NCBI GenBank assembly: GCA_046730015.1
Contig: JBKPHT010000139.1
Coordinates: 1-62,319, forward strand
Length of the DNA stretch: 62,319 bases
Direction: 5' to 3'
Source: Actinomycetota bacterium
GTDB taxonomy: Bacteria; Actinomycetota; Acidimicrobiia; Acidimicrobiales; VFJN01
The notes below the pieces were generated by a model, which saw nothing but the letters and a program-made list of their open reading frames with translations, was not told where the DNA came from and ran no database searches. This document shows, one piece after another, positions 41,045 through 43,970 of the stretch; the first letter of the stretch is position 1, and every line of letters starts with the position of its first letter. The position numbers and the translations under genes are program-made.

Positions 41045-41048
<4 letters not shown>
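39645..41048 (+). CDS. pstP: PP2C Ser/Thr phosphatase with TM and extracellular domain
   Basis: TDVGRVR..NQD, VADGMGGH, NVGDSRAY, CSDGL, GGRDNIT. Confidence 0.95.
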
Positions 41049-42369
<1,321 letters not shown>

Positions 42370-42373
<4 letters not shown>

Positions 42374-42467
42374 GCGAGCGGAGCGAGCGAATCATCAGCA
42401 CAGTGCGTTTCTCGGCCCGAAGGGCCGATTGCTCATTGCGCGCATCCCGAAGGGTGCGCCAATGAGC
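42370..42467 (+). repeat. MIRU/REP-like intergenic element with a 31-aa mini-ORF
   Basis: Bounded by ATGAGC duplicates; two CCC-GAA-GGG hairpins; ORF MSERSERIISTVR.. overlaps the rodA stop and the pbpA start. Confidence 0.75.
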
Positions 42468-43970
42468 AAACAGATTCGCAATCTTGGTGTGTTCCTGGCG
42501 ATCTGCTACGCCGCGCTGTTCCTGCAGGTGAACCGGCTCACCGTCTTCGAGGCCGACGCCCTGCAGGACAAGCCGGGGAACAACCGGGCGGTCGAGCGCG
42601 ACTTCTCGGCCCCCCGGGGGACGATCGAGACCGCCGACGGCGTCGTGGTCGCCGAGTCGGTGGAGTCGAACGACCGGTTCGTCTACCAGCGGACCTACCC
42701 CACCGCCGACCTGTTCGCCGCGGTGACCGGCTACTACGCGTTCGAGCTCGGCTCCACCGGGGTGGAGAGGGAGTACAACGACGAGCTGGCCGGCCGGACC
42801 ATCGACTTCGACCTGCAGGAGCTGGGCGACCTGTTCGTCGACCGCGAGCGGGTGGGCAACGTCACCCTGTCGCTCCGCAACGACGTGCAGTCGGTCGCCC
42901 GCGAGGAGCTCGGCGACCGGGCGGGGTCGGTGGTGGCGCTCGACCCCCGCAACGGCGAGATCCTCGCCCTGTGGTCGACGCCGAGCTACGACCCCAACCT
43001 CATCGCCACCCACGACCTGGCGGCGGCCAAGGCGGCGTCGACCGCGCTGAACGAGGACCCGGAGAGGCCGACCCGGGCCCGCACCTACCAGGAGCGCGAG
43101 TTCCCCGGCTCGACGTTCAAGATCGTGACTGCCACCGCCGGGATCGAGCGCGGCGGGGTCACCGAGGACCAGCCGGACTACCCGGTGAGCGACGCCTACC
43201 AGGCCGCGGGCCAGGGTCGGCCCATCGGCAACTTCGGCGGCGGGAGCTGCGGCGGCACGCTGCTCACCATCCTCCAGGAGTCGTGCAACACCGCTTTCGC
43301 CCAGATGGGCGTCGAGCAGGCGACGGCCGACGGCATGATCGACATCAGCCAGGCCTTCGGGTTCAACCTGGAGGTGCCGCTCGACCTGCCGGGCGCCGTC
43401 CGGTCGGTGTTCCCGAACGAGGCGGTGGCCGACAACCCGCCGTTCCTCGCCCAGGCGTCGATCGGGCAGAACGACGTGCAGGCCACCCCGCTGCAGATGG
43501 CGCTGGTGGCGGCGGCGGTCGCCAACGGCGGCGAGATCATGACCCCGCACGTGATGCGGGAGGTCCGCGACGACCAGGGCGAGAAGGTCGACGAGTTCGA
43601 CGCCGAGGCGTGGACGGCCGCCATGTCGCCGCGGACGGCCGAGACCCTGCGCCGGGGCATGATCTCGGTCGTCACGGACGGCACCGCCTCGCGTTTGGCC
43701 GAGGGCCTCGACGACTTCGAGGTCGGCGGCAAGACCGGCACCGCGCAGCTCGGCACCGACCCGCCCCGGTCGCACGCCTGGATCATCGGGTTCGCGGGCC
43801 CACCCGGCGAGCCACCTCATGTCGCCGTGGCGGTGCTGGTGGAGGGCCAGGAGGGCGCGAGCGAGCAGACTGGTGGCAGAGTGGCGGCACCGATCGCGTC
43901 GGCCGTCCTCCGGCAGGCCCTGTCCCCGGCGGCACCGGCGGCCTCGGACGACCAGACGGGTGGAGGCTGA
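42462..43970 (+). CDS. pbpA: Class B penicillin-binding protein
   Basis: PGSTFK (SxxK), SCN (SxN), KTGT (KTG). Confidence 0.95.

What the first reader, a model, noticed from the sequence alone, without database searches (positions are those of the whole stretch)
42370..42467. MIRU-like element that relays translation from rodA to pbpA and hides the pbpA start codon
Seen: 92 bp lie between two ATGAGC hexamers, consistent with a target duplication. The element encodes [31 protein letters not shown]. Its ATG overlaps the rodA stop and its stop overlaps the pbpA ATG, both as ATGA. It has two hairpins with the same CCC-GAA-GGG tip, and in the second, gctcattg (42431-38) pairs with caatgagc (42460-67), covering the pbpA start. 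Established: mycobacterial MIRUs have this coupled mini-ORF layout. Inference: a lineage-specific repeat family that inserts at ATGA junctions and keeps operons translationally coupled.
Basis: partly seen in the sequence, partly recalled or inferred. Interest (0 to 1): 0.65.

Follow-up and report, generated by a model that had tools for sequence, protein, structure and literature searches.

The report
MIRU-type start-codon relay repeat element
The 92 bases between rodA and pbpA are one of about 90 copies of a small mobile repeat, a relative in design of the mycobacterial MIRUs, that lands exactly on gene start codons and seems to keep the gene expressed by passing ribosomes through its own 30-codon reading frame; unexpectedly, part of each copy is complementary to the first bases of the gene it sits on.

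Summary
The sequence is not single-copy. The genome, an uncultured soil Acidimicrobiales MAG, holds 80 near-full and 14 partial copies. The family occurs in 22 of 24 other genus genomes searched, and model searches found only weak single matches in three other genera of the class.

Closest relatives have a plain rodA/pbpA GTGA or ATGA overlap, and 23 of 26 other sites tested have empty counterparts. So these are young insertions.

- **Position.** Copies lie in sense orientation with their 3' RTG as the host gene's start (about 73 of 79). In about 56 of 79 their 5' TGA is the upstream gene's stop.
- **Length.** The unit is 92, 89 or 86 nt, always 2 mod 3.
- **Ribosome-binding site.** The native site lies before the 5' RTG.
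- **Truncated copies.** They are fused in frame to the host gene.
- **Hairpin.** A hairpin of about -31 kcal/mol, supported by covariation, buries the new start.

The translation relay itself is inferred, not measured. No Y1/RAYT transposase exists in 28 genus genomes.

New here: a hypervariable linker pairs with the host's first 3-4 bases after TGA, independent of element lineage.

Verdict: a new variant of the MIRU kind.

The parts
41045..42373 (+). rodA (FtsW/RodA family). Its start ATG 41045 overlaps the stop of the upstream gene, read as pstP from its position in the operon, in a plain unoccupied ATGA. Its stop TGA is at 42371-42373.
   Evidence: Pfam PF01098, 9e-76. Sequence read. Operon context fhaA ... 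pknB.
42352..42369 (+). Native ribosome-binding region (GAGGT at 42359-42363) inside the end of rodA. It now sits in front of the mini-ORF start.
   Evidence: Anti-SD duplex -7.1 kcal/mol. Family mean -6.7, against -6.6 for unoccupied RTGA overlaps and -4.0 at random positions.
42370..42465 (+). Relay mini-ORF: 31 codons plus stop. The ATG overlaps the rodA stop, and the stop overlaps the pbpA ATG.
   Evidence: The ORF is open and in phase in 75 of 80 copies of this genome and 41 of 43 copies of relatives.
42374..42465 (+). The 92-nt inserted unit, with the boundary drawn after the native ATGA: GCGAGCGG...GCGCCAATGA.
   Evidence: Empty sites in relatives read ...GG GTGA GCAAGCAG. Tandem period is 92. 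Lengths are 92, 89 or 86 in 75 of the 80 near-full copies; the other five are 91, 93 or 96 nt or have lost the 5' TGA.
42372..42412 (+). 5' module: GAGCGAGCG-N-AGCGAGCGAAyC...AGCACAGTG. It is shared with subfamilies B and C and with an 80-nt family in a distant actinobacterial genome.
   Evidence: Alignments A1 and A2. G546 comparison scored 41 against 15.1±2.5 for shuffles.
42413..42427 (+). Hairpin 1: CGGCCC-GAA-GGGCCG.
   Evidence: 99.6% paired; C-G to A-U double change in 10 copies. Across subfamilies the stem reads GGCC, GCCA or GCCG, each compensated.
42428..42432 (+). Hypervariable linker, here ATTGC. Its bases 42429-42432 pair with pbpA bases +1 to +4 after TGA (GCAA, 42466-42469).
   Evidence: The same linker occurs in the unrelated C-type copies at this junction (L035, L039, L110).
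42429..42469 (+). Hairpin 2: 10 + 8 bp with a bulged C42439 and loop CGAA. It encloses the SD-like GAAGGGTG, the pbpA AUG and codon 2.
   Evidence: Covariation in 8 of 18 pairs, 94% paired against 34-39% for slid controls. Family mean -30.9 kcal/mol, with the start codon paired in 71 of 75 copies.
42449..42456 (+). Element-borne Shine-Dalgarno-like GAAGGGTG, 5 nt upstream of the pbpA ATG and buried in hairpin 2.
   Evidence: Duplex with anti-SD -6.2 kcal/mol. At or below -6 in 93% of copies.
42462..43970 (+). pbpA (class B PBP). Its ATG and the following A are supplied by the element. Codon 2 onward is native.
   Evidence: Pfam. Homologues align from residue 1. Native flanks shown by empty sites.

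Best explanation
Window 42374-42465 is a recent insertion of a non-autonomous interspersed element of the MIRU type. It belongs to a family confined, so far as seen, to this Acidimicrobiales genus.

How it sits:
- The element integrates at the TGA of an RTGA word that holds a gene's start codon. Often this is a stop/start overlap of two coupled genes.
- It is always in sense orientation.
- The native ribosome-binding site and native start codon stay on the 5' side. They now open a mini-ORF of about 30 codons that runs through the element.
- The element ends in its own RTGA. The mini-ORF stop UGA overlaps an element-borne RUG, and this RUG is the new start of the host gene (here pbpA).
- A hairpin of about -31 kcal/mol locks up the new start and an SD-like GAAGGGUG.

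How it most likely works: pbpA should be translated only by ribosomes that have read through the mini-ORF. They either melt the hairpin or terminate and re-initiate. This keeps the rodA-pbpA coupling and makes the insertion nearly harmless.

Shown:
- repeat family;
- empty and filled sites;
- orientation and phase;
- length kept at 2 mod 3;
- structural covariation on the sense strand;
- position of the native SD;
- in-frame truncated derivatives.

Inferred: the translation relay itself and the way the element moves.
For: **Census and spread**
- Family census: 80 near-full and 14 partial copies, with tandem pairs of period 92.
- Genus-wide, with only weak single model matches elsewhere in the class.

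**Insertion polymorphism**
- The rodA/pbpA junction is a plain RTGA overlap in L031, L033, L038, L041 and L044.
- Empty counterparts exist for 23 of 26 other sites tested.

**Phase**
- The best coding frame downstream starts at the 3' RTG in about 73 of 79 copies.
- The upstream gene ends at the 5' TGA in about 56 of 79.
- The ORF is open in 75 of 80. Length is 92, 89 or 86, and copies with indels in hairpin 2 still total 92.
- Replicated in 43 copies from 12 other genomes: 41 are 92 nt long and open.

**Junction bases**
- The 5' N equals the native start base. For example the TTG of C18 is kept at the 5' end while the element supplies ATG.

**Ribosome-binding site**
- SD strength before the 5' RTG is -6.7, like unoccupied overlaps at -6.6 and unlike random positions at -4.0.

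**Truncated copies**
- 8 of 9 non-tandem 5'-truncated copies are fused in frame to long coding ORFs.

**Structure**
- 95.5% of cells are paired against 34-39% for slid controls. There are 9 pairs and 82 cells with double changes. G.U wobbles fit the sense strand.
- The start codon is paired in 71 of 75 copies.
Against: - There are no expression data of any kind.
- In a 73% GC genome an open 31-codon frame is weak evidence on its own. Frame 3 and two antisense frames of the consensus are also open.
- The peptide shows no clear purifying selection: 122 synonymous against 188 non-synonymous codon differences.
- The internal SD-like motif could allow some independent initiation.
- No enzyme that moves the element was found, so mobility rests on empty and filled sites only.
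- Sequence homology to a published MIRU unit is not demonstrated.
Confidence: 0.8

Rival explanations
1. Hairpin 2 is above all a DNA-level recombination site. The single strand folds, as integron attC sites, the CTX phage attP or IS200/IS605 ends do. The linker acts as a guide that selects targets whose bases after TGA are complementary, and the translation-relay layout is a by-product that lets insertions survive.
For: - The linker pairs with native host bases +1 to +4: 64 of 74 and 59 of 74 Watson-Crick at +1 and +3, against about 32 expected.
- The match is already high in the least diverged copies.
- Real target preference follows the subfamily. A takes TGAGC/T in 65% of copies against 18% background, B takes TGACC in 71% against 32%. 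The preferred bases are native in empty sites.
- The consensus arm is complementary to the element's own 5' end, that is, to the junction of a circle or a tandem.
- Two junctions were hit repeatedly by different subfamilies.
Against: - Linker states are not linked to backbone lineages, so they are not simply inherited guides.
- 15 copies with a GG arm sit on GC flanks.
- No Y1 transposase exists in 28 genomes, and no other candidate recombinase was tied to the element.
- An old copy shared by two genomes has a decayed, unmatched arm (L170).
Confidence: 0.2
2. The arm-flank complementarity is made after insertion by quasi-palindrome template switching during replication. The nascent strand copies the opposite arm of the long hairpin, so the stem is extended into whatever follows the TGA. 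This explains the hypervariable linker without any targeting function. It is compatible with the best explanation.
For: - The linker is about 20 times more variable than the backbone in copies 1-2 changes from consensus.
- Derived linker bases pair with the local flank in 37 of 54 cells, against 16.6±2.9 for shuffled flanks.
- Eight copies have 2-3 derived bases that all pair, as a single templated event would give.
- There is no linkage to lineage.
- The same linker arose in A-type and C-type copies at the pbpA site.
- The mechanism is established: PMC8794818 and PMC7202029.
Against: - G.T wobbles (9 at +2) and persisting G-G mismatches are not what templated copying gives.
- It does not explain the native target preference.
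- No direct before-and-after pair was found.
Confidence: 0.4
3. The copies are host regulatory RNA elements, for example translational attenuators or thermosensors, or processing or stabilising hairpins like REP/BIME. They would be kept because they tune expression of downstream genes, and mobility would be secondary.
For: - Strong sense-strand structure with covariation.
- The start codon and SD-like motif are buried.
- The element lies in a key cell-wall operon.
Against: - Insertions are species-specific, and the same genes in relatives do without them.
- The host genes have no common function.
- No Rfam family matches.
- No T-run follows the hairpins.
Confidence: 0.1
4. The mini-ORF encodes a functional Arg-rich small protein (MSERSER...).
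For: - The most variable 5' column (col 12) is the third base of a CGN Arg codon.
- 49% of differences fall on third positions.
Against: - Polymorphic columns split 10:4:8 over codon positions 3, 1 and 2.
- Second positions vary more than first positions.
- Most variation tracks stem pairs.
- Subfamilies B and C encode different peptides.
- No Pfam hit.
Confidence: 0.03

Closest known systems
MIRU, mycobacterial interspersed repetitive units (Supply et al. 1997, Mol Microbiol 26:991; as described in PMC3184786 and PMC12548453)
   Same: - Size class of 40-100 bp, with tens of copies and tandem arrays.
- Sense orientation in operons.
- Internal ORF whose start and stop overlap those of the flanking genes by 4 nt.
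- Empty and filled sites with a short direct repeat.
- No known transposase.
- Published MIRU units are 53 and 77 bp (PMC7977185 for the 53-bp unit; the 77-bp class is from my own knowledge). These are also 2 mod 3, like 92, 89, 86 and 80 here.
- Both share the core GAGCG-N-AGCGA with a variable N.
- One M. tuberculosis MIRU even lies in the same operon, next to the Ser/Thr phosphatase (PMC3184786).
   Different: - The host is class Acidimicrobiia, not Mycobacterium.
- No significant sequence similarity to a published MIRU unit beyond the 11-nt core.
- Two strong GC hairpins are present. The second buries the new start and is completed by host bases through a hypervariable linker. To my knowledge this has not been described for MIRUs.
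REP/BIME elements with RAYT (Y1) transposases, and IS200/IS605-derived PATEs
   Same: - Short structured palindromic repeats.
- Strand-specific.
- Insertion next to a fixed short word without a real target duplication.
- Target recognition by base pairing with element DNA in IS608.
   Different: - No Y1 transposase in 28 genus genomes.
- Not extragenic, since the element carries a relay ORF.
- The pairing here is a continuous helix with the 3' flank, not the guide/cleavage-site geometry of IS608.
Classical MITEs (e.g. Correia/NEMIS, ERIC, RUP, Nezha)
   Same: Small, non-autonomous, multi-copy, often co-transcribed with genes and able to alter their expression.
   Different: - No terminal inverted repeats: 5' TGAGCGAGCG against 3' GCGCCARTGA.
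- Fixed orientation and reading phase relative to the host gene.
Folded single-strand recombination sites (integron attC, CTX phage attP)
   Same: An imperfect hairpin whose outer stem is completed by sequence beyond the crossover point.
   Different: No integrase or array context was shown. This is a resemblance of form only and was not tested.
RPE, Rickettsia palindromic elements
   Same: Palindromic repeats tolerated in coding regions because they preserve the reading frame.
   Different: RPEs insert in frame inside genes and become part of the protein. This element stays a separate cistron and shifts the frame by -1.

Membership tests
MIRU | Short (40-100 bp) repeat in tens of copies, also in tandem | tested here: met
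   92, 89 or 86 nt. 80 near-full and 14 partial copies. Tandem pairs on C339, C26 and C306.
MIRU | Lies between or in front of genes, in the genes' orientation | tested here: met
   The downstream coding frame is on the same strand and in phase in about 73 of 79 copies and in 35 of 43 in relatives. The rest of those 43 are mostly inner units of tandems.
MIRU | Internal ORF whose start overlaps the upstream stop and whose stop overlaps the downstream start (4-nt overlap) | tested here: met
   RTGA at both ends, with the ORF open in 75 of 80 copies. Window copy.
MIRU | Empty and filled sites with a short direct repeat | tested here: met
   The shared word is TGA, with RTGA in most copies.
MIRU | Sequence similarity to mycobacterial MIRU units | tested here: inconclusive
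   Against the published MIRU292 unit only the 11-nt core GAGCG-N-AGCGA is shared (score 17 against shuffles 14.1±2.5). A clear relative of the 5' module exists in one distant actinobacterial genome, G546. Its taxon is not named by the tools.
MIRU | Host is Mycobacterium | tested here: not met
   Record titles of the nearest relatives say Acidimicrobiales.
REP / RAYT system | Cognate Y1 (RAYT, IS200-like) transposase in the genome | tested here: not met
   PF01797 is found in none of 28 genus genomes, while the control search detects it in 6 of 14 known genomes.
MITE | Terminal inverted repeats | tested here: not met
   The ends TGAGCGAGCG and GCGCCARTGA are not inverted copies of each other (alignment A1).
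MITE | Longer autonomous partner with the same ends | tested here: not met
   No 5' partial and 3' partial lie on one contig in the right order. The assembly is fragmented, so this is weak.
Rfam RNA families | Match to a curated covariance model | tested here: not met
   Only chance-level hits, E of 4 or more.
Folded ssDNA recombination site (attC-like) | Associated tyrosine recombinase and recombination on the folded strand | not tested
   No search for an associated recombinase was made. It cannot be shown with these tools.

The most novel reading that the evidence does not exclude
The element recognises its landing site by nucleic-acid pairing, or is rewritten from that site at the moment of insertion. 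On this reading hairpin 2, half element and half host gene, is the actual recombination substrate. The hypervariable linker would be a programmable guide for a so far unknown, Y1-independent insertion machinery that aims at start codons. That would also explain how MIRUs move, which has been open since 1997.
Probability: 0.15. Interest if true: 0.85.

Novelty: new variant of a known kind. Interest (0 to 1): 0.6.

Why it matters
**Reach of the MIRU design.** The start-codon mini-cistron design is not a mycobacterial oddity. It also exists in a deep-branching class of Actinomycetota, with about 90 young copies per genome.

**A natural experiment on translational coupling.** Some 70 genes have had their start codon moved 92 nt downstream behind a -31 kcal/mol hairpin and survive. 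This makes the claim that a short ORF delivers ribosomes directly testable.

**Annotation.** Gene callers will mis-place starts at these sites, or call MSERSER... extensions.

**How such elements move.** The host-matched linker is a new clue to how such elements move or evolve. Either it is a guide-like targeting device, or it is an unusually clean case of template-switch mutation building RNA stems.

Tried and rejected
- **Rfam.** Scan of the region gave nothing above chance.
- **RAYT/IS200 partner.** Absent in the own genome and in 28 genus genomes.
- **Autonomous long version.** No paired 5' and 3' partials on one contig.
- **ATGAGC as a 6-bp target duplication.** Rejected as a rule. Copies with 3' RTGACC, RTGAAC or RTGACG still begin NTGAGC, and the 5' N does not match the 3' R.
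- **Host bases after TGA brought in by the element.** Rejected. Empty sites carry the same bases (C49 CCAAG, C164 GCGCC, C18 GCTAC, C128 GCGAC).
- **Slow compensatory adaptation of the arm.** Disfavoured. The match does not rise with copy divergence (Spearman 0.16, p = 0.31).
- **Inherited guide lineages.** Disfavoured. There is no linkage of linker to backbone markers.
- **Family spread across Actinomycetota, as an earlier scan note says.** My model found related copies in only 1 of 400 phylum genomes, plus weak single hits. The filters were strict, so this is a lower bound.
- **Homology to a published MIRU unit.** Not significant.
- **G004:C21 as an orthologous copy of the window's element.** Rejected. 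It lies between other genes.
- **Literature.** Searches for the element's own sequence and for 'MIRU-like' found no description.

Full report
**1. The observation**

The window reads ...GGGGC ATGAGC GAGCGG...GCGCCA ATGAGC AAACAG....
- The rodA frame stops at TGA 42371-73, which overlaps ATG 42370.
- That ATG opens [31 protein letters not shown].
- The mini-ORF stop TGA 42463-65 overlaps ATG 42462.
- The two ATGAGC words are 92 nt apart.

The flanking genes are confirmed.
- The upstream product is an FtsW/RodA protein. The downstream one is a PbpA-type transpeptidase.
- 80 homologues align from residue 1, so ATG 42462 is the real start.

The surroundings are the conserved actinobacterial fhaA ... 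rodA - pbpA - pknB operon. The gene before rodA is read as pstP from its position only; no family search was made on it. Its junction with rodA is a plain unoccupied ATGA at 41045-48.

As RNA the sense strand folds into hairpin 1 (42413-27) and hairpin 2 (42429-69). Hairpin 2 has 10 + 8 bp and encloses the pbpA AUG.

**2. It is a repeat family**

- blastn and an nhmmer profile find 80 near-full and 14 partial copies in this 5.0-Mb, 465-contig genome, including tandem pairs with period 92.
- There are two subfamilies here: A (92 nt, about 55 copies) and B (89 nt, about 22). A third, C, occurs in relatives.
- Record titles of the nearest relatives identify the organism as an uncultured soil Acidimicrobiales bacterium.
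- The family is present in 22 of 24 other genomes of the genus and in none of 16 other families of the order by blastn.
- A covariance model of A+B+C found only three weak single hits in 150 genomes of 82 genera of the class.
- In 400 genomes of the phylum, the model found one distant 6.3-Mb genome (G546) with about ten copies of an 80-nt, tandem-capable unit. It shares the first 33 nt of the element, 28 of them identical, and the ATGA junction.
- Rfam has no matching family.

**3. These are insertions**

- The closest relatives have rodA and pbpA joined by a direct overlap, for example L031 ...GGCGG GTGAGC AAGCAG. L033, L038, L041 and L044 are alike.
- Three more distant genomes (L035, L039, L110) carry a C-type element at the same junction.
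- I joined the two flanks of 26 other copies and searched 28 genus genomes. Contiguous matches, meaning empty sites with a plain RTGA, exist for 23 of 26 sites. Most insertions are therefore young and species-specific.
- A livG/livF-like junction is empty in most genomes. It is filled by an A'-type copy in G000 and G003, and by a different element in G018 and G006. G008 holds a derivative flanked by a 20-nt duplication. This junction is a hotspot.

**4. Anatomy relative to genes**

I trained a codon model on 2,199 long ORFs and scored the flanks.
- The best coding frame downstream begins exactly at the 3' RTG in about 73 of 79 copies. The exceptions are inner tandem units or degenerate copies.
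- The upstream gene ends exactly at the 5' TGA in about 56 of 79. In the rest the upstream side is intergenic or a divergent gene.

So the target is a gene start of the form RTGA, not only operon junctions.

Empty sites show that the 5' N is the native start base, while the 3' R comes with the element. For C18 the relatives have TTGAGCTAC, and the filled site has TTGAGC...ATGAGCTAC.

The unit length is 92, 89 or 86, always 2 mod 3. Copies with indels in hairpin 2 still total 92, and the mini-ORF is open in 75 of 80. 43 copies from 12 other genomes behave the same way.

Predicted Shine-Dalgarno pairing:

| Position | Mean anti-SD duplex (kcal/mol) |
|---|---|
| Before the 5' RTG | -6.7 |
| Unoccupied RTGA overlaps | -6.6 |
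| Random positions | -4.0 |
| Element's own GAAGGGTG (window copy) | -6.2 |

The native ribosome-binding site therefore now serves the mini-ORF. The element's own GAAGGGTG lies inside hairpin 2.

Eight of nine non-tandem 5'-truncated copies are fused in frame to long coding ORFs. Four are exact 24-nt scars of the form RTGAGCGAGCGnAGCGAGCGAAyC + ATGAGC-gene. Only derivatives that keep the host gene in phase with the 5' RTG survive. This is independent support for initiation there.

**5. Structure**

On a gapless alignment of 44 A copies, the two hairpins are paired in 95.5% of cells, against 34-39% when partners are slid.
- Nine pairs and 82 cells show changes on both sides.
- None of 500 shuffles reaches the covariation score.
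- Between subfamilies, the hairpin 1 stem reads GGCC, GCCA or GCCG, each compensated.
- G.U wobbles, including the constant U76.G85, fit the sense strand only.
- Hairpin 2 averages -30.9 kcal/mol, and the start codon is paired in 71 of 75 copies.

**6. Mechanism proposed**

Ribosomes load at the native SD and RTG and translate the mini-ORF. In doing so they unwind hairpin 2. They terminate at the UGA that overlaps the new RUG, and the host gene is then started by re-initiation or through the unmasked SD-like motif. Coupling of rodA and pbpA is kept.

This is what the MIRU literature proposes (Supply 1997, as cited in PMC12548453 and PMC3184786). It is inferred here from anatomy. The peptide itself shows no clear selection.

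**7. The unexpected part: a host-matched linker**

The five bases between the hairpins are hypervariable. They are complementary to the host bases that follow the 3' TGA.

| Measure | Observed | Expected (shuffled flanks) |
|---|---|---|
| Watson-Crick pairs at +1 | 64 of 74 | 32±4 |
| Watson-Crick pairs at +3 | 59 of 74 | 32±3 |
| Watson-Crick pairs at +4 | 39 of 74 | 26±4 |
| Derived linker bases pairing with local flank | 37 of 54 | 16.6±2.9 |

- The host bases are native.
- Eight copies have two or three derived linker bases that all pair.
- The match is as good in the least diverged copies as in old ones.
- Linker states are linked only to their flank partners, not to backbone lineage markers.
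- The window's A-type copy and the C-type copies at the same junction share the linker ATTGC, which matches pbpA GCAA.
- The consensus arm of each subfamily is complementary to that subfamily's own 5' end. That end would be the flank in a tandem or a circle.

There is also a real target preference.
- A takes TGAGC/T in 65% of copies, against 18% among 282 unoccupied overlaps.
- B takes TGACC in 71%, against 32%.
- The preferred bases are native in the empty sites.

I see three non-exclusive origins:
- **Template switching** in the quasi-palindrome after insertion, an established mechanism (PMC8794818, PMC7202029).
- **Pairing-guided target choice.**
- **Selection** on the RNA stem.

None is proven. 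The first fits the lack of lineage linkage best. The second fits the target preference best.

**8. Comparison with known kinds**

The element meets every structural criterion of a MIRU but is not in Mycobacterium. It shares with a published MIRU unit (MIRU292, PMC7977185) only the core GAGCG-N-AGCGA, and that similarity is not significant.
- It has no terminal inverted repeats.
- It has no Y1/RAYT partner in 28 genomes.
- No longer autonomous version was seen.

Literature searches found no description of such a family outside mycobacteria. Its statement that copies are common across Actinomycetota is only weakly borne out by my searches.

**9. Verdict**

This is a new variant of a known kind.

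The rodA-pbpA copy is an ordinary member of the family. The interest lies in the family: its size and youth, the clean evidence for a start-codon relay, and the host-matched hairpin.

Noticed in passing
G000 contigs C304:6017-6046, C161:3710-3741, C155:12127-12156, C306:3395-3443: There are 24-nt solo scars of the form RTGAGCGAGCGnAGCGAGCGAAyC, directly followed by ATGAGC and the host gene. They fit deletion between the element's internal ATGAGC (columns 25-30) and its 3' ATGAGC. The result is an in-frame MSERSERT/I extension or leader.
   Followed up: partly
G000 contigs C128:16933-17000, C207:10815-10876, C236:1911-1965, C463:7088-7134: Longer 5' fragments of the element (47-68 nt) have lost hairpin 2. 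They are fused in frame to ORFs of 266-467 codons with good coding scores. These may be element-derived N-terminal extensions, and gene callers will mis-start these genes.
   Followed up: partly
L169 (G018:C9:922100-922600), L171 (G006:C76), L172 (G008:C3:160600-161100): At the livG/livF-like junction, other genus members carry a different element of about 98 nt that begins ATGAGCGAGCGTCC... and ends ...GAAyCGATGAGC. In G008 its 3' half is flanked by a 20-nt duplication of the gene start (ATGAGCCTGCTCGAGCTCCA).
   Followed up: no
G546:C85:102031-102196, C20:2749-2913 (L163, L166-L168): A distant actinobacterial genome has about ten copies, some tandem, of an 80-nt unit with the same 5' module and ATGA junctions but another 3' half. 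It may link this family to the mycobacterial MIRUs. The taxon is not named by the tools.
   Followed up: partly
3' junctions of G000 copies C224, C325, C335, C218:1045, C346, C290, C247, C13, C189: Host codon 2 is the rare AGT in 9 of 54 subfamily-A sites, against 0 of 282 unoccupied overlaps. Relatives' empty sites have AGC at C325 and C335. The C-to-T change keeps a G.U pair and is synonymous. The cause is unknown.
   Followed up: partly
G000 C18:9512-9608: The native start codon here is TTG, as in three relatives' empty sites. After insertion the gene starts with an element-borne ATG, so the element can change start-codon quality.
   Followed up: partly
window 41045-41048: The junction between the gene upstream of rodA (read as pstP from its position in the operon) and rodA is an unoccupied ATGA overlap followed by TG. 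It is a possible but non-preferred target.
   Followed up: no
alignment A1 columns 43 and 60 (window 42412 and 42429): Column 43 (T or C) covaries with column 60 (T or non-T, mostly G), p = 2.5e-5. This suggests an alternative extra pair at the base of hairpin 1 that competes with the outermost pair of hairpin 2.
   Followed up: no
L146 (G002:C3:330249-330587): At the site that is filled in G000 (C219), G002 has a 35-nt extra piece beginning TGAGCGAGCG. This is probably another remnant of an element.
   Followed up: no
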